A stretch of DNA of 32,000 nt from Candidatus Velamenicoccus archaeovorus (GTDB taxonomy: Bacteria; Omnitrophota; Gorgyraeia; Velamenicoccales; Velamenicoccaceae), in contig NZ_CP019384.1 of NCBI RefSeq assembly GCF_004102945.1, positions 900,001-932,000 of the forward strand, given 5' to 3'. The notes under the pieces were generated by a model. The model was not told the DNA's origin. It did not search any database and worked only from the letters and a program-made list of their open reading frames with translations. Both the position numbers and the translations under genes were made by a program. Below, piece by piece: positions 2,624 through 32,000 of this stretch; the stretch's first letter is position 1; each line of letters starts with the position of its first letter.

Positions 2624-3642
2624 GGGGACGTTTTGGGTTTTATGGCCGCCTGTGCCACAGAGGCGCAGTAGCGGCAGCTCACACATCGTTGATTGCAATG
2701 CGTGGTGTGTTCGATAAAGTCTTTGGGAAAGGCCTTGTTATCGCAGATGAAAGGCAAGGGGCCCTTGTTGGACGGCGCCAGCGTGAAGAGGTCGCCCTTG
2801 AAAGACCGGGCAAGATACGCGGAGATCTTTGTTTTGAGGAGGCGGCTGTCGTCTTTGCGGTAGGCGATCTTGATGCCGTCCGCCCAGCCGTTTTCCTCGA
2901 AAAAGGCAAGGTCTTCCGGCCTCAGGTATGGCCGCCTGATCTCATCGGCCGGCTCCTGCGTTGCGAATTGGCATCCGTCTTTGAGCATGAAGCCGACGTA
3001 ACATCCCGCCCCTTCCTGCAGCATCGTCCTGGCCGCCTCCATGAGGACGGGCCATTCAGCATGCCTGCCGCCGTAGAAACAGTGAAGATAGCAACCGTGA
3101 TTCGCCAAAAGTTTAATGGTGACGGCAGGCAGATGTTTGCGGCCGGCGCGGATGGCATCCAGGGCGCGTGCGTCACGGTTGCAGGAGACATCCAGTGTGA
3201 ATTCCGTCATTCCCATCTTGACCGCCTCTTTGATTTTATGTTCACTGTCGATGTTCATGTAAACCGAACTCTGGAGGGCGATCTTCGGAAACATCTTGCG
3301 CAAGAACGGGACGATGCACGGATCGGCCAGGGTGATCGACGTGATCCCTCCGGAGTCTTCGAGGGCCTTGACGTAGCGGCCGATGCGTTTGAGGTCGTCA
3401 AAGAAATTGATCCGTTTGTTGAGGAGGAGGTTCCTTTTGATCTTGTGACGGTGGCAGAGGGCGATCAGTTGCCGGATCTCGCCGCTGGAGGCTTTGCGGG
3501 TGTTGAGGTATTGGTTGGAATGGTCGTCTCCCTCGGGTCCGGCAAAATAGATTTCGTAGATCCCCCCTGTCGCGATCGCCCATTTCATGAGCGCCAGGTC
3601 GTTGTTGTAAGGGATGGACAGTTTCAGCTTGGGGTTTTTCAT
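2620..3642 (-). CDS. U32-family (PrtC/UbiU/UbiV-like) TIM-barrel protein with C-terminal CX3CX2CX2C motif
   Basis: MKNPKLKLSIPYNNDLALMKW...IYEIYFAG, ITLADPCIVPF and KLLANHGCYLHCFYGGRH match the strand/helix pattern I associate with peptidase U32 proteins. The C-terminus HCNQRCVSCRYC is Cys-rich. It is a paralogue of 10779-11819. There is an ATGA overlap with the upstream gene. Confidence 0.55.
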   Translation of the reverse strand: MKNPKLKLSIPYNNDLALMKWAIATGGIYEIYFAGPEGDDHSNQYLNTRKASSGEIRQLIALCHRHKIKRNLLLNKRINFFDDLKRIGRYVKALEDSGGITSITLADPCIVPFLRKMFPKIALQSSVYMNIDSEHKIKEAVKMGMTEFTLDVSCNRDARALDAIRAGRKHLPAVTIKLLANHGCYLHCFYGGRHAEWPVLMEAARTMLQEGAGCYVGFMLKDGCQFATQEPADEIRRPYLRPEDLAFFEENGWADGIKIAYRKDDSRLLKTKISAYLARSFKGDLFTLAPSNKGPLPFICDNKAFPKDFIEHTTHCNQRCVSCRYCASVAQAAIKPKTSP

Positions 3643-15996: not shown

Positions 15997-16222
15997 GACT
16001 ATCTTGATTTGGATTGCTTTGCCATTGTTCTGTGTCTGTCGTGGCTTGGTCGAGTTCGCGGCGCCGGCCGCGCGTACAACCATGATGAGACGGGGTTGCG
16101 GCAACTGCCTGTTCCGCAAGAGATCGTGCGAGCGATGCGGTGGCCTGCGCCGGTCGAAGGCCGAGGGGGACTCCAGTCATTATATGCAAACTTCAGGCGG
16201 CGGGCAACTGGTATTTGGTGTT

Positions 16223-16249
16223 TTGCACGCCTCCCGAAAATGATATAAT
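16223..16249 (+). promoter_or_regulatory. Putative promoter for the kinase gene
   Basis: TTGCAC (16223-16228), a 15-nt spacer, then TGaTATAAT (extended -10, TATAAT at 16244-16249). It lies about 30 nt upstream of the AGAGGG SD and ATG 16278. The spacer is shorter than optimal. Confidence 0.4.
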
Positions 16250-16277
16250 ACACGACAAAAGAAAGAGGGTATGGTAT

Positions 16278-17273
16278 ATGAAAAAAACGGCGATGCCGCT
16301 GAATGTGGATGCCAAGCGTTTTGATCTCAGGCGCCTTCATTGTTCGGAGTCCGGGATGAAGGGTATCTGCAAGGCTTTCGGGCTCGGGATGCTCTGTTCG
16401 TTCGAGCCGGAGAAGAACGTCAGGATCTCTCATTCCAATTTTCTGGTGTATGCGGAGACATCCAGGGGCCGCTATGCGTTAAAATTCCATCCTCATGGTT
16501 CAGCGAATCTTCATCGGCACGAACACCTTCTGCATCGTCTCTTGCGGCAAAAAGGCGTCTGCGTTCCGCGCATGTTTTCTCCTCCCTGCCTCCCTTTCAG
16601 GCATTATCTTGTCACCTGCCATGAATGGCTCGATGCGGCACCGCTTTACCGATTTCCTGTTTCCAGGATGCGTCATCTGGGGATAACCGAAGCCATCCAG
16701 TCATTCAATAAGACTTTAAGATCCTTGATACACGAGGGATTGGCTTTGCGCCGCCAATCTTTTATCGAAAAAGTCAGGCAGCTCAAAGATGCTTCGAAAG
16801 CCTGCAAAGGGAACGCGGGCGCCAGGGGGCTTCTGGATGATTGTCTCAAGGCTTTTCGAGACGCTCCTGCGGATTTTCCTCTCGTGCCATTGCATGCGGA
16901 TTTGTCGGTTTCCAATATATTATGCAGCGACCGGCAGGTGTTTTTCATCGACTTGACCCATGTGCGGCATGCGTGTCTTCAGACGGACATGGCCAGTCTG
17001 CTTGTTTCGTGCTTTGTGCAGGAGATGCCTTCGTCCGCCCTGGGAAAAATTCTGCTTTCTGGCGAAGAAAATGCATCTTTTCCCAGGGGGTGGAAAAAGG
17101 CCCTCGCCGTTCTTATCAGGCTGGAGGCTTTCGGAGAGTATCTGAAGGATGCGCATCGCCTTGGGAAGACTTATCGCGGCAAAGAAGTTGTTGCCTTCAG
17201 GCGCGAGTTGCTCCGGCACCAGAAAAAGATGGAATATCTGATGAAGGATCCTCTGGCTGTCCTGTCTTCTTGA
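16278..17273 (+). CDS. Phosphotransferase of the aminoglycoside/choline-kinase (APH) fold
   Basis: PLHADLSVSNILCSDRQVFFIDLTHV carries the HxDxxxxN catalytic loop plus the IDL metal-binding Asp. YALKF supplies the ATP-binding Lys. AGAGGG lies 8 nt upstream of ATG 16278. The ORF-track start at 16140 is an unsupported extension. Confidence 0.7.
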   Translation: MKKTAMPLNVDAKRFDLRRLHCSESGMKGICKAFGLGMLCSFEPEKNVRISHSNFLVYAETSRGRYALKFHPHGSANLHRHEHLLHRLLRQKGVCVPRMFSPPCLPFRHYLVTCHEWLDAAPLYRFPVSRMRHLGITEAIQSFNKTLRSLIHEGLALRRQSFIEKVRQLKDASKACKGNAGARGLLDDCLKAFRDAPADFPLVPLHADLSVSNILCSDRQVFFIDLTHVRHACLQTDMASLLVSCFVQEMPSSALGKILLSGEENASFPRGWKKALAVLIRLEAFGEYLKDAHRLGKTYRGKEVVAFRRELLRHQKKMEYLMKDPLAVLSS

Positions 17274-21856: not shown

Positions 21857-22945
21857 TCAAAGGTGTTCCAGGATCAGTTCTGCCGAACGGGCCGCTCCCC
21901 GGAACCAGTTTTCAGGAACGGTCCTCGTTTTTGGGTGTCCGCGTCTGTCCGCGAGCCCTGCGATGGAGCGTTCCAGTTTTTCCGGCGAGATATCTTTTGC
22001 GGACAAGATTCTTGCCGTGGCGTATTGTGCCAGGAACCGGGCGTTCCAGCGTTGCTCGGCCGTTGCGGCGGGCAGGATAAGCGACGGTATGCGGTAGCGC
22101 AGGAGCCGGACCATGGTGTTATAACCGGCGAGGTTGACACTTACATCGGCACCCTTGAGGCATTGTTCGAATTCGGGATATTTCCAGGAAAAATATTCCA
22201 AGGCGGTCTGCCGGTCTCCTTTCCTTTTCAGGGCTTGCGGCGCCGCCGTCCCCGCCGATATCGCGAAATGCCAGTCGGGCCGTTTCAACGCCACGCGCAG
22301 ACAACTGCGGATGAGGCCCGGATGGTCCTGCAGTCCTCCCCGGCTCACGACAACACGTAGGCCCGGACCGGCGCCTTGGCGGCATTCCTTAAAGTCCGTA
22401 TCGTCATGCACGAAGCCCGTTGCGGCAAGCTTGTGCCGGCATTGCCGCAGGACGGCCTTCAGGAGTTTTCTTTCGTCAGCGGGCAGGTAAGATTCATACG
22501 AATTCATCTGCGCTTGCGGCCAGTGATAAAGAACAAGGTCGTAGTGATGAGGCAAAAACAGGTTCAGGGAGTTTGTCCAATCGAGATGGACGGTGCTGGA
22601 GATGATCGTTGTTTTTGAGGAACGCAGTTGTTTGAGGATGGGCAGGAGAACCTGGTGTTCCGGGTGGCGGAAAAAAGGATAATGTTCCGTCAAGAAGACA
22701 TCGGGGCGGATATGTTTGAGCGCCCTGAACAGGGCGCGGCTCCAATGGATGCCGCTTTTTTGTTGCGGCAGGAAAAGGTGGTCGGCGAAGCGCCTGATGG
22801 GAAAAAGATGCGTTTTTTTTGTTCCCGTCTCGATGGCGATGATATCGGTTTTCTTCAGGGATGCCACCGCTTTGGTCAGCGTGTAAACGATATGCGCATG
22901 TCCCAGAGAGTCCGTGTTATGGAAGAAGACGCAGAGCTTTTTCAT
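21857..22945 (-). CDS. GT-B glycosyltransferase (MurG/GT28 C-terminal-like), paralogue of 19444-20667
   Basis: KLCVFFHNTDSLGHAHI, VVVSRGG and VNLAGYNTMVRLLRYRIPSLILP. There is an ATGA overlap with the upstream aminotransferase gene. Confidence 0.7.
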   Translation of the reverse strand: MKKLCVFFHNTDSLGHAHIVYTLTKAVASLKKTDIIAIETGTKKTHLFPIRRFADHLFLPQQKSGIHWSRALFRALKHIRPDVFLTEHYPFFRHPEHQVLLPILKQLRSSKTTIISSTVHLDWTNSLNLFLPHHYDLVLYHWPQAQMNSYESYLPADERKLLKAVLRQCRHKLAATGFVHDDTDFKECRQGAGPGLRVVVSRGGLQDHPGLIRSCLRVALKRPDWHFAISAGTAAPQALKRKGDRQTALEYFSWKYPEFEQCLKGADVSVNLAGYNTMVRLLRYRIPSLILPAATAEQRWNARFLAQYATARILSAKDISPEKLERSIAGLADRRGHPKTRTVPENWFRGAARSAELILEHL

Positions 22946-24060
22946 GAAGGCCTGGTCTTTTGGACGTGGAAAAATTCACGGATGGCCTCGACGACGAACG
23001 CAGCCTCCTTTTCCTTCATGAAAGAGAATAGGGGCAGATGAAGCGCCTCCCCGCTGTAGGCATCGCTGTTCGGCATCTGCGTTCGGCAGAAGGACGAGAA
23101 TGTTTTCATGCGGTGCAGCGGCGTGTAGGGGTTTTGCCAGTCGATGCCTCGTTTTTTGAGATGTTGGCCGAGGGCATCGCGTTCGCGCGCGGCCATGACG
23201 AAAACCTGGGGGATGGTCAGGGTGCGCGCGTCGTCGCGCGGGAAAGAGATGTTTTTCATGCCGCCCAGCTCTTTTTCGTAAAATGCCTTGATCTTGAGCC
23301 GCGATTTGATGATTTCCTTGAGAAAGCGGAATTTTGTCCTGACGGCCATCAGGTCCCAGAGGTACATGCGGGAGTATCTCTGGCCGGCCTTCAGAAGCGA
23401 GGCGTCGTCTTTCCATATTTTTGTCATTTCTACGATTTTTTCGCAGGCCGGGTCGTTAAAACACAGCATGCCTCCTCCGCCTCCGCATGAGGACAGGGGT
23501 TTGTAGTACGAGAAAGAGAAGCATGAGATGTCGCCGAAAGAACCTAATTTTTTGTGTTTGTATTCGGAGCTTTCCGCCTGGCAGACGTCTTCGACGACAA
23601 ACAGCTTATGTTTTTTTGCGATGGCAAGGATGCTGTCTATGGGGGCGGGGCGGCCGAACATGTGCACGGCAATGATGCCTTTGGTGCGCTTGGTCACCAA
23701 GCCGCGGACCGCGTCCGCATCCATCTGGTAGTCTGCCGTGCGGCAATCCGCCGGGACGGGCAAGCCCCCTGCATAGATGACGGCCAGGGGAACGGCAGGA
23801 TACGTCACGTTCGGGACGATGACCTCGTCGCCTGTCTTGAGGCCATAGTGTTGGAGAGCCAGCTGGAGGGCGTCGGTTCCCGAATTCAGGGCGAGGGCAC
23901 GGCGTGTGCCGATATAGCGCGCAAATTCCTTTTCCCACTCTCCGAGGAGGCCTTCGATGTCGTTGAGGCCGTTGATCCTCTTGAGATCGGCCTCGATCCT
24001 CTCTTGATAAGATTTGATCAGCAGCCTGTCGATGCGCATGCTGTCATACCGGATGGGCAT
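22942..24060 (-). CDS. PLP-dependent sugar aminotransferase, DegT/DnrJ/EryC1/StrS family
   Basis: LNSGTDALQLAL, GDEVIVPNVTYPA, IIAVHMFGRP, VVEDVCQA and FSFSYYKPLSS (candidate PLP lysine) follow the DegT family pattern. Confidence 0.85.
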   Translation of the reverse strand: MPIRYDSMRIDRLLIKSYQERIEADLKRINGLNDIEGLLGEWEKEFARYIGTRRALALNSGTDALQLALQHYGLKTGDEVIVPNVTYPAVPLAVIYAGGLPVPADCRTADYQMDADAVRGLVTKRTKGIIAVHMFGRPAPIDSILAIAKKHKLFVVEDVCQAESSEYKHKKLGSFGDISCFSFSYYKPLSSCGGGGGMLCFNDPACEKIVEMTKIWKDDASLLKAGQRYSRMYLWDLMAVRTKFRFLKEIIKSRLKIKAFYEKELGGMKNISFPRDDARTLTIPQVFVMAARERDALGQHLKKRGIDWQNPYTPLHRMKTFSSFCRTQMPNSDAYSGEALHLPLFSFMKEKEAAFVVEAIREFFHVQKTRPS

Positions 24061-24158: not shown

Positions 24159-25058
24159 ATGGATATTGCAACCGTAACGCTTTCCTTTGTCCCGCTGCTT
24201 GTGATCCTGGGGGTCCGGACGAGTTATTCGGACCTCAGGAAAGGGATCGTCAAGAACTGGGATCTTGTTTTTACCTTGTTTGCCGCAACGGCCCTTTATG
24301 GGTATCTTATTGTATACCATGGGGTTCAGATAGATCCCGTTCTCTTTATCGGAAACTTCTGCATTGCGGCAAGCTTCGGGCTGATCCTCTATTTTACCGA
24401 TTGCTGGGGGGCCGGTGACGCAAAACTCTTCATTGTCTATTCATTGATGGTCCCCTTTCCCGCCGACAGGGCTGTCCTGCCGTTTTCTGCTTTTGTCATC
24501 TTTGCCAATACGATCATGATCGCCTGCGGTGCCGTTATCCTTTTGTCGCTGAAGGACGTGATCCGTTCTTTTCCCCAATGCCTCCAGCGGTTGTTTTCCC
24601 TGAAGACATTGAAGCGGCTGATGATTTCATTTTCGCTCCTTTTGAGCATCAGCTGGGTCGTCCCCTATCTCTTGGGTTTTTTTGGCGCCCATGCCTCGCC
24701 TCTCATTTTTATCCTGTTGACCTATCTGCTTTATTCCGGATTGCATTCCATTTTGCGTTTTTTCAAGTCTTACGCGTTATTTTCTGTGGTTGTATTATGC
24801 GGTATCGGGATCCGCTTTTGGCTGTTTCCTCATCCGCTGGAGGTCCTCTCGTCCCTTTTGCTCAGCTTCAGAAAGATCATCCTGGTGACTTTCTTTTTTG
24901 GCCTTCTGGACATTTTTTTCCAGGCAGATGAAGTTGAGAAGAAAAAGACGAATGATGATTCGATCATCCTGGCCCCCCACATGTTCCTCGGTGTCATGCT
25001 GACCCAGACACATTTCTTAAAGGGAGTCATGAAACTCATGAACTATATCTGGAGATGA
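24159..25058 (+). CDS. Polytopic membrane protein, prepilin peptidase (A24 aspartic protease)-like
   Basis: The two family signatures are present: SYSDLRKGIVKNW (first Asp) and CWGAGDAKLFIVYSL (GxGD-type second Asp). There are multiple hydrophobic segments. Its stop overlaps the next ATG (ATGA). Confidence 0.65.
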   Translation: MDIATVTLSFVPLLVILGVRTSYSDLRKGIVKNWDLVFTLFAATALYGYLIVYHGVQIDPVLFIGNFCIAASFGLILYFTDCWGAGDAKLFIVYSLMVPFPADRAVLPFSAFVIFANTIMIACGAVILLSLKDVIRSFPQCLQRLFSLKTLKRLMISFSLLLSISWVVPYLLGFFGAHASPLIFILLTYLLYSGLHSILRFFKSYALFSVVVLCGIGIRFWLFPHPLEVLSSLLLSFRKIILVTFFFGLLDIFFQADEVEKKKTNDDSIILAPHMFLGVMLTQTHFLKGVMKLMNYIWR

Positions 25059-26335
25059 CCATGCCGGTCCTGGCGGTTTTGCTGAAAAAAATGACGTTGA
25101 CCGGTGCACGGGTCCGCAAGGAGGGGCGCCTCATAGAGGTTTGCGTCGGTCGAGCCGATCCTTTCAGGGTGCGTTCCCTGGCTTATCTGCTGCTTAACGG
25201 CTTTGAGCGCAGGTATTTTATCGTGGTGCGGGAAATGCCCTATTGCCTGATGCCGGATGCCTGGGATCATATTCCGTCGTCTGCGGGCGATGCAGTCCGC
25301 GATCGCCGTTGCCGGAGCTGCCGTTTCCACCTGTCTTGCCTCGGACCTAAGCGCCGTGTCGTTCCTGCCGCACAAAAGGATGCGCCGCGGGAGGTGGCTT
25401 TTGAACTCACGGATCGTTGTAATCTGCGTTGCCGGACGTGTTTCCATGCTACGGGTTCAAGACGGCTTGCGCTTGAGCGGGTCATCGCCGTTATGAAGGC
25501 GATGAAGCGGGCAGGGGTCCCGCAGGTCCGCTTCACGGGCGGAGAACCGTTGTTGTATCCCGGCCTCCGGCCGGCTGTGCTGACGGCGAAAAAGATGGGA
25601 CTAGAGGTGCTTTTGAATACCAATGCAACATTGATCAACCAAGAGGATGCGGAGTTCCTGGCATGCCATCTCGACGATATCCTGGTGTCGTGTCAGGGGT
25701 GCGATGGGGCTACTGAGGAATATTTGACAGGCGGCGGAAGATTTTTTGCGGATAAATTGCGTCATATTCGCATGTTGACGCGCCGCAACCTTCCTCTGCG
25801 CGCAGGAACGATCGTGACGCAGACATTAATTGAACGTCTGCCGGATTACCTCAGTCTTTTGCAATCCTTGGGGGTCGGCCGGTGGGAGCTCTACAGGCCT
25901 CTGCCCACCTCCTTTTCTCAAAAGAGGGGCATGGTTTCGAGAGATGATTTCAGGAGGCTGCTGGCGCGTTTAAGTGTTTATAGGGGGGATATGTCGATCA
26001 AGTTCGCAAACCCCGTCCCCTTTTGCATGGCGGATGACCTTGCGGCGAGTTGTCACTTATTGACCGGAGGATTTTGGGACGACGGCCACAGCCGTCTTGT
26101 TATGGATGCCGGAGGGCATTTCAAGCCAAGTTATGCCCTCGATACGGATCTTGGCACCGATATGTTGAAAGCCTGGCGTCATTCCGCATTAACGCCCCTC
26201 CGCTCTCTTTCTTATCTGTCTCCGAGGTGCCGGGAATGCGCCTATGTTTATTGGTGCAGGGGCGGCAGCCGATTGTGGGCCCGGCACGGCAGAGGCAGTA
26301 TCTGGTCCGAAGATCCGTGGATGTCTCATGAATAA
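25055..26335 (+). CDS. Radical SAM enzyme with an N-terminal Cys-rich extension and a C-terminal SPASM-like CX2CX5C
   Basis: FELTDRCNLRCRTC is the rSAM box at residues 122-129, followed by FTGGEPLL. The N-terminal 110 aa contain MPYC...CRSCRFHLSC. The C-terminus carries CRECAYVYWCRGG. Confidence 0.85.
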   Translation: MTMPVLAVLLKKMTLTGARVRKEGRLIEVCVGRADPFRVRSLAYLLLNGFERRYFIVVREMPYCLMPDAWDHIPSSAGDAVRDRRCRSCRFHLSCLGPKRRVVPAAQKDAPREVAFELTDRCNLRCRTCFHATGSRRLALERVIAVMKAMKRAGVPQVRFTGGEPLLYPGLRPAVLTAKKMGLEVLLNTNATLINQEDAEFLACHLDDILVSCQGCDGATEEYLTGGGRFFADKLRHIRMLTRRNLPLRAGTIVTQTLIERLPDYLSLLQSLGVGRWELYRPLPTSFSQKRGMVSRDDFRRLLARLSVYRGDMSIKFANPVPFCMADDLAASCHLLTGGFWDDGHSRLVMDAGGHFKPSYALDTDLGTDMLKAWRHSALTPLRSLSYLSPRCRECAYVYWCRGGSRLWARHGRGSIWSEDPWMSHE

Positions 26336-27059
26336 ATTCATTTTTGTCCGCGATGACGATGTCTGGCGTCTCTCCCGCTCTTTCCGCGCTTTTTTTGATT
26401 ATTGCTTTGACCATGATATCCCGGTCGTGTATGCCGTCATCCCGGCAAAGATGCAGCCGGGCCTTGTGCGTTTTTTGAGGAAGAGGAAGAAAGAAAAACC
26501 GAAGATGCTCGATATCGTCCAGCATGGATGGCGTCATGCAGACCATCGCTTGAAAAATGAGACGGTCCTGGGGAGGGGGAAATATGAATTCGGCCCTTCC
26601 CGTTCTTATCTTGTTCAGAGACGCGATATTCTTGAGGGGCGGTCGAAAATGATAGAAGCTTTTAGGGACGACTTTGTGGACGCCTTCGTCCCTCCTTTTC
26701 ACGGATACGACAAGGCGACATTGCGGATAGTGGAAGAGTGCGACTTTGGGATGTTTTCCGCCCGCAAAAAAGAGATTTTTCCTCAAGGGCGCGTCCTGTC
26801 CCTTCCCGTAGATATTTCTATCCCCGCAGGGGATCAGGCATTTGACTTGCGCGGGTTCATGAATATCCTTTGGAAGCGCATGAAAGGCCCTGGTCGGGTG
26901 GTGGGCGTGTTGAGTCATCACGAAAAGCTGGGGAACGTACGCTTGCGCCAAGACACCTTCACTTTCTTGTCGGCGCTCAAGAAGCTCCAGAATGAAGGGG
27001 TTTGCCGCTTGACGACCTTTTCAAGGATGCGGCGGCAGGGCGACGCGAGGGGTTATTGA
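26328..27059 (+). CDS. NodB/CE4-like polysaccharide deacetylase-family protein
   Basis: FVRDDDV (metal-binding DD motif), QHGWRHADH (HxxxH-like) and FVPPFHGYD fit the order of the CE4 motifs. ATG 26328 overlaps the upstream stop by 8 nt. The ORF-track start at 26244 is unsupported. Confidence 0.5.
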   Translation: MNKFIFVRDDDVWRLSRSFRAFFDYCFDHDIPVVYAVIPAKMQPGLVRFLRKRKKEKPKMLDIVQHGWRHADHRLKNETVLGRGKYEFGPSRSYLVQRRDILEGRSKMIEAFRDDFVDAFVPPFHGYDKATLRIVEECDFGMFSARKKEIFPQGRVLSLPVDISIPAGDQAFDLRGFMNILWKRMKGPGRVVGVLSHHEKLGNVRLRQDTFTFLSALKKLQNEGVCRLTTFSRMRRQGDARGY

Positions 27060-27826
27060 TAGAGGGTCTTGACTTTTTTGTCCAGGCACTTTGTTTTGGT
27101 CTTTGGATCCTGGATGTATTCGCAGAGATCGGGAGAATTGTGGTTTTTGGCGGCATAGAAATAGGCGAAATCGTTTAGGTATTGTTCGGCGATCTCCGAT
27201 GGCCTGCGCGTATCAAAAAAGACATCGCACACCGTCTCGCCCTTGCCTTTGATCCCCTTGCTGAATTTCTCGCAGGCCAGTTTGCTGCGATAGTATTTAT
27301 AGCCGAAAAAGACGCCCATCTGCATGTAGTATTCGTTCCTGTCAAGGGGCCTGCCGGCAATGATATCAAGGGCTTGGCTGGCGAGGGGAAGGTTATCCGT
27401 TAAAAATGCCGTGCAGATGTCCCGATGGGCCGCTTCCTTCAGGGATTGGCAGGTGTTCGTCTTATAGGCATTGCAAATGTTCCTGGCGTATTCTTTTTTG
27501 ACATCGTTGCAATTTCCCTCGGCTTCATTTTTGATGACGATCAGGGCCTTTGCCAATTCTTCGCAGGTTTCGCCGCCCTCGTTTAATTCTTTGCACATGT
27601 CCGGATTGCCTTCGCGCGCCGCCGTGAATGTCACGATGTATTGAAAATCATAGCTCTTCCTGATGCCTTCCTTGATCGCTTCGATTTCTTTTTCTTGCTC
27701 GGGCGTGATAGGGACGGCCCTCTGGGAAAGATGCTCTTCTGGCGTGGTCGTTTCTCCCGTTCGTGCGAAACCGAAGACCAGTCCGGTCAGTGTCAGCGAC
27801 AAAAGGATAAGGGTAAATTTTTTCAT
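27053..27826 (-). CDS. Secreted Cys-rich protein of unknown function
   Basis: From ATG 27826 the sequence MKKFTLILLSLTLTGLVFGFA looks like a signal peptide. The mature part contains 10 Cys in spaced pairs (DMC..ETC, GNC..NIC..NTC..DIC, LAC..TVC, DLC..TKC). The start lies 4 nt after the stop of the HxS-repeat gene. Confidence 0.6.
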   Translation of the reverse strand: MKKFTLILLSLTLTGLVFGFARTGETTTPEEHLSQRAVPITPEQEKEIEAIKEGIRKSYDFQYIVTFTAAREGNPDMCKELNEGGETCEELAKALIVIKNEAEGNCNDVKKEYARNICNAYKTNTCQSLKEAAHRDICTAFLTDNLPLASQALDIIAGRPLDRNEYYMQMGVFFGYKYYRSKLACEKFSKGIKGKGETVCDVFFDTRRPSEIAEQYLNDFAYFYAAKNHNSPDLCEYIQDPKTKTKCLDKKVKTLYQ

Positions 27827-27830
27827 AGGC

Positions 27831-28103
27831 TTAATATGAACCATGGCTTGAATGTGAATAATGGCTGACGTGGTCGATCTTGACGCAACGCGTCGAGTAT
27901 GGCGTGATCCCGAGATTGTTGGCATGCGAGCTGTGGTTGGTGTGTCCGGCAATCAGGTTGGCGGAGAAAGCGCTCAGGATGCCGAGGGCAGAAATCGTCC
28001 CCAATCCGATCTTGAGGATTTTTTCCTTGGAAACAAAACCGGATTCATCTTTGATAAATTCATGCAGGGTTTTTTCGATTTTTCTCTTTTTTTTGGGCCC
28101 CAT
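27831..28103 (-). CDS. His-Xaa-Ser repeat protein (HxsA-like candidate precursor/substrate)
   Basis: A 90-codon ORF with a strong AAGGAG 5 nt upstream of ATG 28103. The C-terminus HVS-HYS-HSS-HGS-Y has four tandem H-x-S units (nt 27837-27872), and an upstream HSS unit is also present. The N-terminus is Lys-rich and is followed by a hydrophobic segment. The gene lies directly downstream of an rSAM/SPASM gene. Confidence 0.7.
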   Translation of the reverse strand: MGPKKKRKIEKTLHEFIKDESGFVSKEKILKIGLGTISALGILSAFSANLIAGHTNHSSHANNLGITPYSTRCVKIDHVSHYSHSSHGSY

Positions 28104-28157
28104 GCGCTCTCCTTAATTAATGCCGCCAAAAAGATGTTAAGCCTGTTTGCCGGGTAA

Positions 28158-28204
28158 CCTGTTGGCCGGTATGTCTGTATACGGGTTGCCCTGTGGGCCG
28201 GTAT
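28158..28204. repeat. Direct repeat CCTGTKGGCCGGTATG x2 (32-bp period) within a cluster of RRCCGGT motifs
   Basis: Positions 28158-28173 and 28190-28205 are identical at 15 of 16 positions. Further GGCCGGTT, AGCCGGTT and AACCGGTT copies lie at 28205-28245. All of this sits in the 154-bp gap between the rSAM/SPASM gene and the HxS-repeat gene. Confidence 0.6.
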
Positions 28205-28257
28205 GGCCGGTTAGCCGGTTTACTCGCTCACCCGCTAACCGGTTCACGAATCCTCCG

Positions 28258-29694
28258 CTATGCCAGCCAGGAAAGAAAGACTTCTTTGTTCCTGGCATCT
28301 TCCAGTATTCTATCAAAAATATATCTGATTTGGAAAGTAAAAATTTTATGAAGTCCCGATGCCTTGATCTTGGGCACGAGACTGTTGTTTTGCGCGTAAT
28401 TCAGGACTGGGCATGTTCCCAGCCACGGCAGGAAAGCCGTATTGTAGTCCCACAGATCCATCAGGGAAGCCTCGCAGAGGCAGAAGACATTGTTGCTCTT
28501 CATCACCGTCTGGTAATCGTCCTTGAGGATATTGCCGAGCCGGAACATGCTCTCGCCGACCATGCGCGCCTCGTCACAAGGATAGATGTCGCCGTTCGGC
28601 ATATACGCCAGGACGGCCCTGCCCGCCCCGCAGGGGCTCATCATGTCGACGTAGCCCGGATTTTCCTTTTTGAAGATCTTCGACAGGATGACGGCGCAGA
28701 GGCGTTCCTGGATCTTGAGGCCTTTCTTGTTTAATTCCAGGATATGATCCATCGCCTGCGTCCAGAAGGCGAGGAATTCTTCGGCCGTATATCCGATCGC
28801 GTCCCATTGATCTTTGGCAAGGCCGAGCCTTGACAAAGGGCGCAGCGCGATCCTTTCGCTCCCCAGCGAGATGTATTCGTCGATGATCTTTTCGGGTTCC
28901 TGCAGACTGCGGCGCGTGATCGTGCATAAAAGATTGACGCTGTGCGGCAGGCCGTGTTGTTTGTAGATCTTTTTCGTCCTTGCGACGGCGTCCTTGACGA
29001 TATCATAGGCGTCCTTGCCGGATCCGATGACCCGGTTATGGTTATGCACGGAGGCCGGACCGTCGAAAGAGAAACAGATGCCGACATTGTGTTTGGCGAG
29101 ATAGGAGATTTTTTTGTCGTCCAGGAGGGTGCCGTTGGTCACCAGGCTGATGGCGAGGTGCTTGTTGCCCGTATTGATGCGTTGGGCGTTCTCGGTGATG
29201 AATTTGATGATGTCCCAGTTGAGGAGCGGTTCGCCCCCCTGGAATTCGATATTGGCATAAGGATTCTGGGTGTCGAAAACATATTTCAGGACCCTTGAGG
29301 CGACTTCGATCGTCATATCCTGCGGCGCGTTGTTTTTTGTCTGACAATAGAGGCAATTCATGTTGCAGCGTGTCGTGACGACCGCGATGTGCAGGGATGT
29401 GTCATTGAAGAGATGGCTGTGGAGGCGTCTGTACGTTTCTATCAGGCTTTTTATGGAGTTTTCGTCTGCGATGATGCCTGCTTTGAGCAGCCGCTTGAAG
29501 AGGCCTGTTTGTTCCCCTAGGTCATTGCTTTCGAGCCGAACAAATTCCTTGCGATCCAGCATGTCCCAGGAACCGAAGAGATTGCTGACAAGATAATGGT
29601 TTTTGATGCGTTCGATGTTGTAAGGCAGGATAGCCCAGGTGTTTTTTTCCGTTTTTTTCATTTCACTCCTTGATGATTCCGCTTTGGGCGGCAT
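28258..29694 (-). CDS. Radical SAM/SPASM maturase, HxsB-like by context
   Basis: VVTTRCNMNCLYC is the rSAM box, followed by FQGGEPLL. CGAGRAVLAYMPNGDIYPC is a CX12GX4C motif, followed by further Cys (FCLCE, GTCP). There is a pre-rSAM N-terminal domain of about 100 aa. An alternative start at ATG 29661 has AAGGAG 4 nt upstream. Confidence 0.75.
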   Translation of the reverse strand: MPPKAESSRSEMKKTEKNTWAILPYNIERIKNHYLVSNLFGSWDMLDRKEFVRLESNDLGEQTGLFKRLLKAGIIADENSIKSLIETYRRLHSHLFNDTSLHIAVVTTRCNMNCLYCQTKNNAPQDMTIEVASRVLKYVFDTQNPYANIEFQGGEPLLNWDIIKFITENAQRINTGNKHLAISLVTNGTLLDDKKISYLAKHNVGICFSFDGPASVHNHNRVIGSGKDAYDIVKDAVARTKKIYKQHGLPHSVNLLCTITRRSLQEPEKIIDEYISLGSERIALRPLSRLGLAKDQWDAIGYTAEEFLAFWTQAMDHILELNKKGLKIQERLCAVILSKIFKKENPGYVDMMSPCGAGRAVLAYMPNGDIYPCDEARMVGESMFRLGNILKDDYQTVMKSNNVFCLCEASLMDLWDYNTAFLPWLGTCPVLNYAQNNSLVPKIKASGLHKIFTFQIRYIFDRILEDARNKEVFLSWLA

Positions 29695-29834: not shown

Positions 29835-29877
29835 CACAAAGAAAATAGAAGCCGCCGGATCCTGCCGGCGGAGCTTC
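29835..29877 (-). terminator. Rho-independent terminator
   Basis: The minus strand reads GAAG-ct-CCGCCGG caggat CCGGCGG-CTTC (11-bp GC-rich stem, 2-nt bulge, 6-nt loop) followed by TATTTTCTTTGTG. It lies about 50 nt after the stop at 29927. Confidence 0.7.
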
Positions 29878-29926
29878 ACATTTCGCAAGAACAATAGAAA
29901 ATCGAAAATAGACCGCAGACACCATA

Positions 29927-30259
29927 TTAGAGATGGCGCCGCGCGGCAAAGGTGAACGGAGAAAAATATCTTCTCCAGGCATTCTCTGTGGACCGGAATT
30001 GATTGGAACCGGCAAAGAAATCCACGATCGCCTCGCGCAAACGCGCCAGCTCTTTGAGGCGGGCCTTGCCGGAGACATTGTCCAGAGTCAAGTCGATCAG
30101 CTCAAGAGACCGTTCGAATGCCATTTGGCTGTAGGCCGGATTTTGTTTTTTTTTCCAGCTCAAGGCCCTCTCCACCTCGCTTCCGATATGGGCCATTTGT
30201 TCCAAAAACGGCAGGCGGCCCCATCGCCCCTGCGCAAGTTCTTTGTGATGCAGGTTCAT
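29927..30259 (-). CDS. Hypothetical helical protein (partner of the DUF5674-like gene)
   Basis: A 110-codon ORF with an ATGA overlap on the upstream gene. LPFLEQMAHIGSEVERALSW is vaguely MazG/all-alpha NTP-PPase-like. I cannot assign a family with confidence. Confidence 0.5.
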   Translation of the reverse strand: MNLHHKELAQGRWGRLPFLEQMAHIGSEVERALSWKKKQNPAYSQMAFERSLELIDLTLDNVSGKARLKELARLREAIVDFFAGSNQFRSTENAWRRYFSPFTFAARRHL

Positions 30260-30597
30260 TGTTGGACCCTTTTTCTGACGACGGCGATGATTTTTTTGCG
30301 CATGCCTTCATCCTCAACCCCGAGGCTTCTATTGTTTTGAGAAGGACGCATGTTGATCATGGAATCAAATTCTATATGGTCGTCTCCTGGAATGTCGGGA
30401 TAAAGATTGATTCCCCAGAGGCTATTCTGTTTTGACCCCGCATCCAAAAGCATCGCTTCCAGGTCGGAATGAAGCTCGGCATCGACGGCAAGAAGTTCCT
30501 TGTCGACATCGACGACGGCTTTGACGAGGTTTCCGAACCTGCGGACTGCCATGCCTTTCAATTCATCTAAGGTTAATTTTTCGGAGATGATTTTCAT
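30256..30597 (-). CDS. DUF5674-like protein
   Basis: From ATG 30597: MKIISEKLTLDELKGMAVRRFGNLVKAVVDVDKELLAVDAELHSDLEAMLLDAGSKQNSLWGINLYP...FDSMINMRPSQNNRS. This matches my recollection of the DUF5674 family consensus. The ORF-track start at 30672 would overlap the upstream rSAM gene. Confidence 0.55.
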   Translation of the reverse strand: MKIISEKLTLDELKGMAVRRFGNLVKAVVDVDKELLAVDAELHSDLEAMLLDAGSKQNSLWGINLYPDIPGDDHIEFDSMINMRPSQNNRSLGVEDEGMRKKIIAVVRKRVQQ

Positions 30598-30608: not shown

Positions 30609-31550
30609 CTAAACGGGTCGAAATTCCCTGGATCCGAAGAGCCGGGGATATTCGATCCACGGGCCTTCGCATTGATTAAACCAGCGGCACGGCGCGCACG
30701 TCGGGAATTTCGTTTTGGCCTGGAATTTACGGACGATATCGAAATTGTCGACCGTTTGGTGGATTTCCTTGCATTGAGCCGGTGGAATAAAAAATTCGGA
30801 AGCGCAGCGTTCATAAGGCGCCAGGAGACAAAACGGCACGGCCTCCACCATGACGCGCCGTCCAGCCCGCAGGCCGATCTCAAGTCCCTTCTTGATGAAC
30901 GGCGCCGCCGCGCCGGCTTTCGGGACGATTTTTTTGTAGTAAATCATGGCGTTGCCTTGGATATGGACAAAAGCGAACTGGAACTGGATGACGCCTAGCT
31001 TGACCAGCAGTTCTGCCAGTTCGGGCAAAAAACGGTAATTCTGTTTTGTCACGACCGTGTTGGTGAGCGTTTTGATCCCCAGGCGGCACATGTTGTGGAT
31101 CCCCAGAACGGTCTGACGCCAGCTTCCCGGAGAACGCGTGAGGCCGTCGTGGATGGCCGCCGTCGGGCCGTGGAGCGCAGGCGCGAACGTCGTCATCCCC
31201 GCGCGTATCATCTGTTTGCAGAAATTCTCGTCCGCGAATTTCCGGCCGTTGGTCTGTATCTGGATTTCGGTGAAACCTGTCGCTTTGGCAAAGGCGACAA
31301 TTTCTTCGATGTCCGGCCTTATGCTGACTTCTCCTCCTGTCAGGACCACATCGGTTTTTCCTTCGCGGAAGGATTCGACGAGCTCGCGCTTGATCTGGCC
31401 GGTTGTCTTCTCGCCGAAAGGCCTCTTGTCCGCAACGACACAGAACAGGCAGTCGTTGGAACATTTGTACCCTACCTTGAGGTCGACCCGGCGGATCACA
31501 GGAACTTCATCTACGAAGTCTTGTTGAGGTAAAACAGGTAGTTTGCCCAT
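30609..31550 (-). CDS. Radical SAM protein (same subfamily as the rSAM domain of the GT fusion; HxsC-position candidate)
   Basis: DLKVGYKCSNDCLFC, LTGGEVS and IQIQTNG. The C-terminus carries VPFC...CAPCRWFNQCEG...EFRPV, which parallels FPYC...CQRCAYHQRCEG...EFKPI of 3639-5747. Confidence 0.8.
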   Translation of the reverse strand: MGKLPVLPQQDFVDEVPVIRRVDLKVGYKCSNDCLFCVVADKRPFGEKTTGQIKRELVESFREGKTDVVLTGGEVSIRPDIEEIVAFAKATGFTEIQIQTNGRKFADENFCKQMIRAGMTTFAPALHGPTAAIHDGLTRSPGSWRQTVLGIHNMCRLGIKTLTNTVVTKQNYRFLPELAELLVKLGVIQFQFAFVHIQGNAMIYYKKIVPKAGAAAPFIKKGLEIGLRAGRRVMVEAVPFCLLAPYERCASEFFIPPAQCKEIHQTVDNFDIVRKFQAKTKFPTCAPCRWFNQCEGPWIEYPRLFGSREFRPV

Positions 31551-31735
31551 TCAAGGACGTCTTTCAACTGAGCGTTTTTCAATTCGCAGTGACGATAGCT
31601 TTTATCTTTGGTTTTCAACTCTTTGACCCATCCCTTGTCCTCTTTGAGGAGGCGGTCAAGGGGTTCTTGTTTGTAAAGGTCTTTATGGAACTTGAGAACG
31701 AAACTATTTTTTCCCTTTTTTTGCAACGGAAACAT
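31511..31735 (-). CDS. Small hypothetical protein (74 aa), possible HxsD-like companion
   Basis: GAGGAGG lies about 9 nt upstream of ATG 31735. It overlaps both neighbours (32 nt and 40 nt). The sequence ends ...LKDVLEWANYLFYLNKTS. Confidence 0.45.
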   Translation of the reverse strand: MFPLQKKGKNSFVLKFHKDLYKQEPLDRLLKEDKGWVKELKTKDKSYRHCELKNAQLKDVLEWANYLFYLNKTS

Positions 31736-32000
31736 TCTTTTCTTCCTCCTCGAGCTCTTTGATCAGGTCTTCGATTTCTTTTTCCTCGGCCTCCTGGACG
31801 AGCGATGGGGCTGTTGAGAACAGGGCCCTCTGCATGAGCGATTTGATGGCATCGGCGTTGGCCTTGACGCGCGTGAAGTAATGCGCGTAATTCAACAGCT
31901 CATTATAAAATTCCATGGCCAGTTTTTTCAGATCGGCCGACTCATTCTGGGGGTACAGATAGACGAAGAATTTGTCCGCTGACTGGTCCAGCAGGATATA
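31704..32000 (-). CDS. Partial CDS (C-terminal about 98 codons; the frame is open to the window edge), small acidic-tailed protein
   Basis: The frame stays open from 32000 down to the stop at 31704: YILLDQSADKFFVYLYPQNESADLKKLAMEFYNELLNYAHYFTRV...EEEKEIEDLIKELEEEEK. The ORF-track start (ATG 31916) is probably internal. Confidence 0.5.
   Translation of the reverse strand, partial: YILLDQSADKFFVYLYPQNESADLKKLAMEFYNELLNYAHYFTRVKANADAIKSLMQRALFSTAPSLVQEAEEKEIEDLIKELEEEEKNVSVAKKGKK

What the first reader, a model, noticed from the sequence alone, without database searches (positions are those of the whole stretch)
27831..29694. Variant His-Xaa-Ser (Hxs) system: a 90-aa HxS-repeat protein immediately downstream of an rSAM/SPASM maturase
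Seen:
- ORF 27831-28103 has one of the best SDs in the window (AAGGAG-5 nt-ATG).
- It ends in four perfect tandem H-x-S units (HVSHYSHSSHGSY). A further HSS unit lies in GHTNHSSHANN.
- 154 bp upstream on the same strand is a 478-aa rSAM. It has a pre-rSAM domain of about 100 aa and a SPASM-type CX12GX4C plus extra Cys.

Established: TIGRFAMs/NCBIfam define a His-Xaa-Ser system (models TIGR03976-TIGR03979). It comprises the repeat protein HxsA, the rSAM maturases HxsB (SPASM) and HxsC, and the small protein HxsD. To my knowledge, neither the modification nor the biological role has been determined experimentally.

Inference: this is a divergent member of that orphan RiPP-like system, with a short repeat tract, a membrane-anchoring or secretory N-terminus, and a co-transcribed secreted Cys-rich protein. 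It is embedded in a much larger rSAM island, which may make it a useful entry point for working out the chemistry.
Basis: partly seen in the sequence, partly recalled or inferred. Interest (0 to 1): 0.75.

Follow-up and report, generated by a model that had tools for sequence, protein, structure and literature searches.

The report
Omnitrophota variant His-Xaa-Ser maturation system
A 90-residue exported peptide ending in histidine-x-serine repeats sits next to the radical-SAM enzymes that probably modify it, forming a trimmed-down, undescribed Omnitrophota version of the HXS system, which in E. coli was shown in 2026 to block phage DNA entry.

Summary
The 478-aa radical-SAM (rSAM) enzyme passes NCBI's curated HxsB model (386 bits, cutoff 370). 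The 90-aa protein is a real, conserved gene. It has more than 100 Omnitrophota homologues and matches only the HxsA3 model, below cutoff (39 bits, cutoff 65).

- HxsD, cut by the window end.
- A 74-aa HxsD-like protein.
- An HxsC-like rSAM enzyme.
- A two-gene insertion peculiar to this genome.
- HxsB, the HxsA-like precursor and a secreted Cys-rich helical protein.
- A convergent A24-type membrane aspartyl peptidase, present in 20 of 28 related loci.

It differs from the canonical system in several ways:
- No peptidoglycan-binding domain.
- A core of about 38 aa that is uncharged, has one conserved Cys and ends in Ser-Tyr.
- HxsC is often absent.
- HxsB has lost the CxxCx5C part of its SPASM domain.

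I read this as a new variant of a known kind. A cytoplasmic rSAM modification is guided by a near-invariant leader, and the peptide is then exported to the envelope. An antiphage role is inferred only by homology.

The parts
31704..32000 (-). HxsD, C-terminal 98 codons; the gene runs off the right end of the window
   Evidence: An open frame reaches the window end. It is 83% identical to the L001 protein that carries PF27806 HxsD and hits TIGR03976 at 35.3 bits against a cutoff of 50. It is 100% identical to the full-length L009 copy. It contains LYP and ELLNYAHYFTR, which correspond to the LYW and LLNDYxLRE motifs of HxsD.
31511..31735 (-). 74-aa HxsD-like small protein
   Evidence: It is conserved between HxsD and the next rSAM gene in relatives, with 64% identity to L001. 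Its N-terminus aligns with the HxsD N-terminus (hhalign probability 82%, E 1e-5). It has no Pfam or NCBIfam hit.
30609..31550 (-). HxsC-like radical SAM protein (313 aa)
   Evidence: Best NCBIfam hits are HxsC4 at 151.7 bits (cutoff 500) and HxsC at 92.9 bits (cutoff 267.9); the next family scores 73. It has a C-terminal CAPCRWFNQC motif. An orthologue is present in only 9 of 28 related loci.
30256..30597 (-). DUF5674 protein, first gene of a two-gene insertion between HxsC and HxsB
   Evidence: PF18924 scores 120.5 bits. In relatives HxsC abuts HxsB with no intervening gene.
29927..30259 (-). 110-aa protein of unknown family, second gene of the insertion
   Evidence: No family hit. It shows a 4-nt overlap with the DUF5674 stop codon.
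29852..29871 (-). Terminator-like GC hairpin followed by a T-run, closing the inserted cassette
   Evidence: Consensus scan found 7 GC pairs. This is a pattern match only.
28258..29694 (-). HxsB radical SAM maturase (478 aa) with an N-terminal domain of about 100 aa and a degenerate SPASM domain
   Evidence: TIGR03978 scores 386.2 bits against a cutoff of 370, covering residues 22-477. The closest solved structure is CteB, 5WGG, at E 1e-25. Only C355, C373 and C428 remain of the SPASM cysteines.
28104..28257 (-). 154-nt HxsB-HxsA spacer with three degenerate 32-nt repeats, a 13-nt inverted repeat and the AAGGAG Shine-Dalgarno site
   Evidence: The spacer is not conserved even in the closest relative. 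Its fold is not better than shuffles, z = -0.9.
27831..28103 (-). HxsA-like precursor (90 aa): basic N-terminus, near-invariant leader FIKDExGF-SKEKILKIGLGT, hydrophobic stretch, ANLIA|GH site, 38-aa core with C73 and HVSHYSHSSHGSY-COOH
   Evidence: NF038309 HxsA3 scores 39.1 bits against a cutoff of 65.
27053..27826 (-). Secreted Cys-rich all-helical protein (257 aa, 12 Cys) starting 4 nt after the HxsA stop codon
   Evidence: It is conserved downstream of HxsA in 16 of 28 loci. The AF2 model has pLDDT 74.7 and is all helices, with no PDB match at E<1.
24159..25058 (+). A24-type (prepilin-peptidase-like) polytopic membrane aspartyl peptidase, convergent with the Hxs operon
   Evidence: PF01478 scores 25.5 bits against a cutoff of 26.5 here, and 15 of 19 family members hit it, best E 4e-11. 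D25, N33 and G86-D87-x-K89 are invariant. It lies within 10 kb of HxsB in 20 of 28 loci.
25055..26335 (+). 426-aa radical SAM protein, translationally coupled to the A24-like gene
   Evidence: Pfam Radical_SAM hit. It shows a 4-nt overlap with the A24-like gene. It is present in 15 of 28 loci.
26244..27059 (+). DUF2334 / polysaccharide-deacetylase-like protein (likely start near 26328)
   Evidence: PF10096 hit at E 1.3e-9. It also neighbours the system in L002 and L003. Whether it belongs to the system is uncertain.

Best explanation
This is a lineage-specific (Omnitrophota) variant of the His-Xaa-Ser (HXS) peptide/protein maturation system. It comes from Candidatus Velamenicoccus archaeovorus or a near-identical genome.

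The 90-aa HxsA-like protein is a precursor with two parts:
- About 52 N-terminal residues form a near-invariant leader (F-I-K-D-E-x-G-F-x-S-K-E-K-I-L-K-I-G-L-G-T), followed by a hydrophobic stretch of about 15 residues and an Ala-x-Ala-type site.
- About 38 C-terminal residues form a variable core with one conserved Cys, about six His, a tandem HxS tract and a C-terminal Ser-Tyr.

Inferred mechanism:
1. In the cytoplasm the leader docks the precursor onto HxsB, an rSAM enzyme built like CteB with an N-terminal recognition domain. HxsD and a 74-aa HxsD-like protein assist, and in this genome an HxsC-like second rSAM enzyme does too.
2. These enzymes install a radical-mediated covalent modification in the Cys/HxS core.
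3. The hydrophobic stretch then takes the modified peptide across the inner membrane.
4. The leader is cut off by signal peptidase at ...ANLIA|GH, or by the linked A24-type aspartyl peptidase.
5. The His-rich peptide of about 38 aa acts in the periplasm or envelope, probably together with the co-translated secreted Cys-rich helical protein.

What is shown and what is inferred:
- Shown: family assignments, gene content, conservation and linkage.
- Inferred: the order of events, the cleavage site and the chemistry.
- By homology with the E. coli HXS system, the end function may be an envelope barrier to phage DNA entry. I put that at about 0.35-0.4. The core here is uncharged and lacks a peptidoglycan-binding domain, so the effector mechanism is likely to differ.
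For: - HxsB passes the curated equivalog cutoff at full length, and so does its L001 orthologue.
- The 90-aa protein hits only HxsA3, at E 4.7e-10 over residues 8-88.
- The HxsC-like protein's top two hits are HxsC4 and HxsC.
- HxsD is present.
- Census of 28 related loci with adequate flanks: HxsD in 26, HxsA-like in 26, small protein in 18, A24-like in 20, Cys-rich in 16, rSAM426 in 15, HxsC-like in 9.
- The leader is far more conserved than the core, which is the RiPP-precursor pattern. Across 104 proteins, D is in 104, G in 104, F in 101 and K at +9 in 102. Cores vary from HxS-SY to GGK-ended to long Cys-rich types.
- The same F-x-x-[DE]-E-x-G leader occurs in true HxsA3 and HxsA4 proteins next to HxsB in other phyla.
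- Ala is at -1 in 64 of 104 proteins, and the hydrophobic run of about 15 residues fits a Sec signal.
- The canonical HXS system needs HxsB, HxsC and HxsD for N-terminal processing, export and a modification inside an HxS repeat (PMC13128918).
- The closest solved structure to HxsB is the peptide-crosslinking rSAM enzyme CteB.
Against: - Only HxsB reaches a curated cutoff. The HxsA, HxsC and HxsD relatives here are all sub-threshold.
- Gene order differs from the canonical D-B-C-A order.
- There is no peptidoglycan-binding domain, and the core has median net charge 0. The electrostatic DNA-binding model proposed for E. coli HxsA therefore does not transfer.
- HxsB here has lost the CxxCx5C cysteines that other HxsB clades keep. 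Its chemistry may differ or be reduced.
- The neighbours are envelope-glycan and rSAM genes rather than defence genes. PADLOC gave only generic rSAM similarity.
- No experiment exists for any Omnitrophota member.
Confidence: 0.8

Rival explanations
1. This is a secreted RiPP natural product or metal-binding peptide rather than a defence effector. The modified 38-aa His-rich peptide would bind Ni, Zn or Cu, or act on prey or host cells of this epibiotic predator. It would use the Hxs enzymes only as its biosynthetic machinery.
For: - The core is short, His-rich, uncharged and hypervariable, with one Cys and a free C-terminal Tyr.
- After the predicted cleavage the N-terminus would be Gly-His. 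By general knowledge, not tested here, that is a copper-binding arrangement as in GHK.
- True HxsA3 relatives (not the window protein) give weak NCBIfam hits to the metal proteins ZnuA and CzcI.
- The system is widespread and syntenic in Omnitrophota, beside envelope genes rather than in defence islands.
- V. archaeovorus is a predator or epibiont.
Against: - The only experimentally studied homologous system is antiphage.
- No transporter or metallophore-uptake genes are linked in any locus.
- There are no metal-related domain hits in the window proteins.
Confidence: 0.3
2. The HxsA-like protein is a prepilin-type (class III signal, Flp-like) substrate. The linked A24 peptidase cleaves after invariant G22 (FIKDESG|FVSKE, acidic residue at +5) or after G35 (KIGLG|T). 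This would leave a membrane-anchored or fibre-forming His-rich protein.
For: - The A24-like gene is linked in 20 of 28 loci despite rearrangements and changing neighbours.
- Both catalytic Asp motifs are invariant, and 15 of 19 members hit Peptidase_A24.
- The leader motif F-I-K-D-E-S-G resembles the Flp leader F-L-K-D-E-S-G of Caulobacter PilA (from memory).
- G is present in 104 of 104 proteins and D/E at +5 in 90 of 104.
- N-terminal processing in the E. coli HXS system is non-canonical and depends on the Hxs proteins.
Against: - No family member hits Pfam Flp_Fap even at E<=10.
- tblastn of the leader against plasmids and a profile search of the PDB found no pilin.
- The same FxxEEG leader occurs in HxsA3/HxsA4 systems of other phyla that have no A24 gene within 10 kb.
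- Nine charged or amphipathic residues separate G22 from the hydrophobic stretch, unlike pilins.
- An AxA site follows the hydrophobic stretch.
Confidence: 0.2
3. The HxS tract is coincidental. The rSAM enzyme would be an ordinary SPASM maturase (SCIFF, ranthipeptide or sulfatase type) acting on another substrate, and the 90-aa ORF would be spurious or unrelated.
For: - Secondary hits of the rSAM enzyme are PapB (138 bits), SCIFF maturase (122 bits) and anSME (107 bits).
- A published case exists where an HxS motif sits next to rSAM enzymes unrelated to HxsB and HxsC (PMC9062424).
Against: - The HxsB score (386 bits) is nearly three times the next family and above the cutoff.
- The 90-aa gene immediately follows HxsB in 26 of 28 loci.
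- Its profile finds true HxsA3 and HxsA4 proteins.
- H84 and H87 are invariant.
Confidence: 0.03

Closest known systems
Canonical HXS antiphage system of E. coli/Klebsiella (HxsD-HxsB-HxsC-HxsA; TIGR03976-03979; Li et al., Nat Commun 2026, PMC13128918)
   Same: - An HxsB orthologue above the curated cutoff.
- A second HxsC-like rSAM enzyme and an HxsD-type small protein.
- A substrate with tandem HxS repeats and an N-terminal export signal.
- Maturation that must precede export.
   Different: - The substrate is 90 aa rather than 214 aa and has no peptidoglycan-binding domain.
- The core is uncharged, has one conserved Cys and ends in Ser-Tyr-COOH.
- Gene order is D-small-C-(insert)-B-A.
- HxsC is absent from about two thirds of related loci.
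- HxsB lacks the CxxCx5C SPASM cysteines.
- Extra linked genes are present: a Cys-rich secreted protein, an A24-type peptidase and a third rSAM protein.
- The phylum is Omnitrophota, whereas 99.7% of known systems are in Pseudomonadota.
NCBIfam variant precursors HxsA3 (NF038309) and HxsA4 (NF038313), with the rare HxsC4 (NF038332)
   Same: - Same precursor plan: basic N-terminus, F-x-x-[DE]-E-x-G-x-[IV]-x-[KR] leader, hydrophobic stretch, AxA site, HxS repeats and an aromatic C-terminus.
- HxsA3 is the only model the window protein hits.
- HxsC4 is the best model for the 313-aa rSAM protein.
   Different: - Scores are well below cutoffs: 39 against 65, and 152 against 500.
- HxsA3 and HxsA4 carry long SHGSHG/SHSSHS tracts ending in Trp, or long C-terminal extensions.
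- Here the tract is short, and leader-linked cores are sometimes almost HxS-free.
- The A24, Cys-rich and 74-aa genes are absent from the HxsA4-type loci examined.
CteB/SCIFF and PapB thioether-forming rSAM-SPASM peptide maturases
   Same: - CteB is the closest solved structure (5WGG, E 1e-25, residues 69-408).
- An N-terminal leader-recognition domain is followed by the rSAM core.
- A conserved Cys in the substrate could be a thioether donor.
   Different: - Scores are far below those families' cutoffs: 122 against 425, and 138 against 340.
- Two auxiliary clusters are unlikely here because the CxxCx5C block is lost.
- The substrate has one Cys, not several.
His-containing triceptide (three-residue cyclophane) rSAM systems, e.g. 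HaaB/HtkB (PMC11499958)
   Same: - A three-residue motif beginning with an aromatic or His residue is repeated in a ribosomal peptide next to an rSAM-SPASM enzyme.
- A His-x-Ser ring-to-C-beta crosslink is chemically conceivable.
   Different: - The cyclophane maturase models score only 66-77 bits (YhhB 77.3, GrrM 66.0, AmcB 65.7) against cutoffs of 310-445. The L001 orthologue scores 68.2 on FxsB against a cutoff of 370.
- The only mass datum for an HXS system is +8 Da, not -2 Da per motif.
Type IV prepilin / Flp peptidases (Pfam Peptidase_A24: PilD, TadV, FlaK)
   Same: The linked 299-aa membrane protein keeps both catalytic Asp motifs and the family fold signature.
   Different: - It is about twice the size of TadV and has extra C-terminal helices.
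- It has no pilus-assembly genes beside it. The Tad locus of this organism is elsewhere.
- Its putative substrate is not a recognisable pilin.

Membership tests
His-Xaa-Ser (HXS) system | HxsB: rSAM maturase scoring above the TIGR03978 curated cutoff | tested here: met
   386.2 bits against a cutoff of 370, residues 22-477 on profile positions 1-466 of 466.
His-Xaa-Ser (HXS) system | HxsA: substrate with tandem His-Xaa-Ser repeats encoded in the cluster | tested here: met
   Four tandem HxS units plus one further unit. The gene starts 154 nt after HxsB. The repeats are conserved in homologues.
His-Xaa-Ser (HXS) system | HxsA matches the curated TIGR03979 model | tested here: not met
   No TIGR03979 hit at E<=1.
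His-Xaa-Ser (HXS) system | HxsC: second rSAM enzyme above the TIGR03977 cutoff and adjacent to HxsB | tested here: not met
   92.9 bits against a cutoff of 267.9. HxsC4 scores 151.7 against 500. The gene is separated from HxsB by a 915-nt two-gene insertion here and is adjacent in relatives. These are nevertheless its best two families.
His-Xaa-Ser (HXS) system | HxsD small protein (TIGR03976 / PF27806; LYW and LLNDYxLRE motifs) | tested here: inconclusive
   The window copy is truncated. Its 83%-identical orthologue scores 35.3 bits against a cutoff of 50 on TIGR03976 and carries a precomputed PF27806 hit. The motifs are degenerate here (LYP, LLNYAHYFTR). PF27806 is not in the local Pfam copy.
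His-Xaa-Ser (HXS) system | Gene order HxsD-HxsB-HxsC-HxsA (99.6% of described systems) | tested here: not met
   The order here is HxsD-small-HxsC-[DUF5674, 110 aa]-HxsB-HxsA.
His-Xaa-Ser (HXS) system | HxsA carries an export signal and a peptidoglycan-binding domain | tested here: not met
   A hydrophobic stretch plus an AxA site is present. There is no PG-binding or any other Pfam domain in the 90 aa.
His-Xaa-Ser (HXS) system | rSAM-dependent modification within an HxS repeat, and antiphage activity | not testable with these tools
   This needs co-expression with MS and phage challenge. It is known only for the E. coli system.
HxsA3 (NF038309) | Score at or above the curated cutoff of 65 bits | tested here: not met
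   39.1 bits. The L001 orthologue scores 42.3. True members score 94-116.
rSAM-SPASM maturases | CX3CX2C motif plus the seven-Cys SPASM motif (CX9-15GX4C ... CX2CX5CX3C ... C) | tested here: not met
   CX3CX2C and CX12GX4C are present. The CX2CX5C part is replaced by non-Cys residues throughout the Omnitrophota clade and retained in other HxsB clades. Pfam SPASM scores 18.7 against 21.5.
Peptidase A24 (prepilin peptidase) for ORF 24159-25058 | Two catalytic Asp motifs and a Pfam PF01478 match | tested here: met
   D25 and G86-D87-x-K89 are invariant in 19 sequences. 15 of 19 members hit PF01478, best E 4e-11. The window copy scores 25.5 against 26.5.
Flp/Tad-type pilin for the 90-aa protein | Match to Pfam Flp_Fap, with G|xxxxEY followed at once by the hydrophobic helix | tested here: not met
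   None of 31 members hit Flp_Fap at E<=10. There is no PDB or plasmid pilin match. The only resemblance is the FIKDExG motif with an acidic residue at +5.

The most novel reading that the evidence does not exclude
The Omnitrophota block (HxsD, HxsD-like, HxsB with a reduced SPASM domain, precursor, Cys-rich periplasmic protein, A24-type peptidase) would be a distinct, largely HxsC-independent pathway. In it, a single leader serves three roles: rSAM docking site, export signal and substrate for a dedicated intramembrane aspartyl protease. The product would be a Cys-crosslinked, His-rich, Tyr-terminated peptide of about 38 aa. It would work with the Cys-rich helical protein as a new kind of envelope effector, acting against phage, in prey contact or in metal handling, in ultra-small predatory bacteria. 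The varied cores under the same leader (HxS-SY, GGK-ended, long Cys-rich) would make it a diversifying RiPP platform rather than a single-product system.
Probability: 0.2. Interest if true: 0.75.

Novelty: new variant of a known kind. Interest (0 to 1): 0.55.

Why it matters
- The HXS system received a function only in 2026, and its chemistry (+8 Da in an HxS repeat) is still unsolved. One reason is that E. coli HxsA is a 214-aa, inclusion-body-prone protein that needs HxsB, HxsC and HxsD together.
- The Omnitrophota variant offers a natural minimal substrate, with a core of about 38 aa.
- In most relatives the system has a single rSAM enzyme with a simplified cluster complement. That could allow the HxsB reaction to be assigned alone by MS/MS or NMR.
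- It extends HXS-type systems from Pseudomonadota to an uncultivated phylum of nanobacterial predators.
- It shows that the effector module (PG-binding domain, basic repeats) is not conserved. This tests how general the DNA-entry-barrier model is.
- The conserved link to an A24-type peptidase suggests an explanation for the non-canonical N-terminal processing seen in E. coli, and that explanation can be tested directly.

Tried and rejected
- **Flp/prepilin reading of the leader.** A Pfam scan of 31 members at E<=10 found no Flp_Fap hit. A profile search of the PDB gave no hit. tblastn of the leader against 72,556 plasmids gave only three chance hits. I downgraded this to a minor rival, also because HxsA3/HxsA4 leaders share the motif without any A24 neighbour.
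- **Fold of the Cys-rich protein.** The AF2 model (pLDDT 74.7) has no PDB match, best E 1.6. No function could be inferred.
- **A24-like protein against PDB sequences.** No hit.
- **HxsB-HxsA spacer.** The RNA fold is no better than shuffles, z = -0.9. There is no Rfam family in the whole window. The repeats are not conserved in relatives.
- **PADLOC.** Only generic viperin/rSAM similarity, so no defence-system call.
- **Context of distant HxsA3/HxsA4-type proteins (P0169, P0209).** Their contigs are about 1 kb and uninformative.
- **Local Pfam copy.** It lacks PF27806, so HxsD could not be re-scored directly.
- **Word-limited homologue search for the Cys-rich protein.** It gave only 4 sequences, so the structure alignment was shallow.


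Full report
**Observation**

Both genes are on the minus strand. ORF 28103..27831 encodes 90 aa ending DHVSHYSHSSHGSY, with a further HSS unit in GHTNHSSHANN. On the coding strand it is preceded by AAGGAG, five bases, then ATG. The 478-aa rSAM ORF 29694..28258 ends 154 nt upstream. Its CX3CX2C motif is at residues 110-117 and a C355-x12-G-x4-C373 element follows.

The small ORF is a real gene. An identical protein is annotated as hypothetical (BU251_04190) in Candidatus Velamenicoccus archaeovorus, an Omnitrophota predator or epibiont. A single-sequence search found 52 homologues and a profile search found 109. An exhaustive profile search found 327 cluster representatives at E<=0.001.

**Family assignment**

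- The rSAM enzyme scores 386.2 bits on TIGR03978 (HxsB), cutoff 370, end to end. The next family, PapB, scores 138.
- The 90-aa protein matches only NF038309 (HxsA3), at 39.1 bits against a cutoff of 65.
- The 313-aa rSAM protein at 31550..30609 has HxsC4 (151.7 against 500) and HxsC (92.9 against 267.9) as its two best hits.
- PADLOC-DB (2023) gave only generic viperin-type rSAM similarity.

The partners are relatives of the curated models, not members.

**The full system**

Neighbourhoods of six homologues show a recurrent block:
- HxsD (PF27806).
- A protein of about 73 aa.
- Sometimes an rSAM protein of about 310 aa.
- HxsB.
- The HxsA-like precursor.
- A protein of about 266 aa.
- On the opposite strand, a membrane protein of about 290 aa, often with an rSAM protein of about 435 aa.

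In the window, HxsD runs off the right end. The open frame 32000..31704 is 83% identical to the L001 HxsD and 100% identical to the L009 copy. The L001 orthologue scores 35.3 bits against a cutoff of 50 on TIGR03976.

The 74-aa protein (31735..31511) is conserved. Its N-terminus aligns with the HxsD N-terminus at hhalign probability 82%.

DUF5674 (120 bits) and a 110-aa protein lie between HxsC and HxsB only in this genome and its closest relative (L009). They are followed by a terminator-like hairpin.

The Cys-rich protein starts 4 nt after the HxsA stop codon and is 26% identical (E 3e-22) to its L002 counterpart. An AF2 model (pLDDT 74.7) is all-helical and has no PDB match.

**Census**

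A scan of one genome per GTDB species with an HxsB alignment returned 76 loci. I scored every six-frame ORF with HMMs built from the first loci. Counts among the 28 Omnitrophota-clade loci with enough flank are below.

| Component | Loci with it (of 28) |
|---|---|
| HxsD | 26 |
| HxsA-like | 26 |
| A24-like | 20 |
| 74-aa protein | 18 |
| Cys-rich protein | 16 |
| 435-aa rSAM protein | 15 |
| HxsC-like | 9 |

HxsB loci from other phyla (Myxococcota, delta-proteobacterial and other bins) keep HxsB and HxsC. They encode precursors that score on HxsA4, or sub-threshold on HxsA/HxsA2. They have no A24, Cys-rich or 74-aa gene.

**The precursor**

Across 104 family members the leader is almost invariant: F-I-K-D-E-x-G-[FNY]-[IV]-S-K-[DE]-K-I-L-K-I-G-L-G-T. 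The core varies. It has a median length of 40 aa, six His and four HxS units. It has exactly one Cys in 81 members, a C-terminal Tyr in 80 and a median net charge of 0. Ala sits just before the first X-His in 64 members.

Some members keep the leader but carry GGK-ended cores or long Cys-rich cores with few HxS units. A conserved leader with a variable core is the RiPP-precursor pattern.

The leader motif F-x-x-[DE]-E-x-G also occurs in true HxsA3 and HxsA4 proteins. It is therefore best read as the docking element for the Hxs enzymes. The hydrophobic run of about 15 residues plus an AxA-type site reads as a Sec signal.

**HxsB peculiarity**

The closest solved structure is CteB, the SCIFF thioether synthase (5WGG, E 1e-25). 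Other HxsB clades keep C-x2-C-x5-C-x2-C. The Omnitrophota clade has replaced the first three of these cysteines and keeps only C355, C373 and C428. One relative (L006) has lost even these three. Another (L079) lacks the CX3CX2C motif itself.

**The A24-type peptidase**

ORF 24159-25058 scores 25.5 bits against a cutoff of 26.5 on Peptidase_A24. Of 19 orthologues, 15 hit that family and nothing else. D25, N33 and G86-D87-x-K89 are invariant.

Its linkage to the Hxs block survives changes of neighbours and rearrangements. I considered that it cleaves a Flp-like site (FIKDESG|F, with an acidic residue at +5 in 90 of 104 members). Several results speak against this:
- No Flp_Fap, PDB or plasmid pilin similarity was found.
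- The motif also occurs in systems without an A24 gene.

The peptidase may still process the leader, for example at the Omnitrophota-specific invariant K-I-G-L-G-T. This remains a hypothesis.

**Literature**

Li et al. (Nat Commun 2026, PMC13128918) showed the following for the canonical HxsD-B-C-A system:
- It blocks phage DNA entry.
- HxsB, HxsC and HxsD are needed for N-terminal processing and export.
- A +8 Da change maps to SHRSS.
- 99.7% of systems are in Pseudomonadota.

The Omnitrophota papers held in the library do not mention Hxs. HxsB is otherwise cited only as an annotated cluster.

**Verdict**

The finding is real and correctly interpreted as a divergent HXS system. It is not an orphan any more, and it is not a member of any curated HxsA, HxsC or HxsD family. 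I class it as a new variant of a known kind. Its value lies in a minimal core peptide, optional HxsC, a reduced SPASM domain and Omnitrophota-specific partners. An antiphage function is inferred from homology only. The uncharged core and the missing PG-binding domain argue that the effector step differs.

Noticed in passing
window 3639-31550: There are twelve radical-SAM genes in 32 kb. They sit among GT4/GT28 glycosyltransferases, a DegT-type aminotransferase (22942-24060), an APH-type kinase (16140-17273), U32-like proteins, an AMP-binding enzyme and an Asn-synthase-like protein. This looks like an unusually rSAM-rich sugar or envelope-glycan modification island.
   Followed up: partly
window 3639-5747 (-); L002 15613-16285: A 702-aa fusion joins a GT4 glycosyltransferase to a radical-SAM domain. 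A relative carries a 1540-aa GT4-GT1-rSAM-SPASM fusion.
   Followed up: no
window 29852-30597 (-): A two-gene cassette (DUF5674 plus a 110-aa protein of unknown family), with its own terminator-like hairpin, is inserted between HxsC and HxsB. It splits the operon. It is absent from relatives such as L010, L001 and L002.
   Followed up: partly
window 28138-28242: The HxsB-HxsA spacer holds three degenerate 32-nt tandem repeats, a GGCCGGTAT direct repeat and a 13-nt inverted repeat. The spacer is not conserved even in L009, whose HxsB is 95% identical. L010 and L046 instead carry two GC hairpins at this position.
   Followed up: partly
L003 6201-6529 (also held as L018); L079 7196-8617; L006 7585-8991: There are signs of decay in relatives. 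L003 has HxsC reduced to two short fragments. The L079 HxsB lacks the CX3CX2C motif. The L006 HxsB lacks all three remaining auxiliary cysteines.
   Followed up: partly
L011 1622-2963; L012 1142-2500; L035 284-5037; L038 11343-12234: Precursor copy number varies. In L011 and L012 two HxsA-like genes flank the Cys-rich gene. L038 has tandem HxsA-like genes. L035 has a tandem duplication of the whole HxsD-small-HxsB-HxsA unit.
   Followed up: no
proteins P0089, P0091, P0093, P0101, P0102, P0105, P0106: These proteins keep the same near-invariant leader but have cores of 120-146 aa with 4-6 Cys and few or no HxS units. Shared motifs include HANF, NGxxC and GKG. The leader appears to be reused for a different core class.
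   Followed up: no
L009, L011, L016, L050-L060 record titles: Several MAGs carrying near-identical Omnitrophota sequence are titled 'uncultured Planctomycetia/Planctomycetales'. HxsA4-type loci are titled 'uncultured Rickettsiales', and one locus is titled 'Methanosarcinales archaeon'. These are probably taxonomic mislabels or mis-binning.
   Followed up: no
window 829-2019 (-): A phosphoglycerate kinase gene (PGK, 520 bits) lies at the left edge. The island therefore sits beside core housekeeping genes.
   Followed up: no
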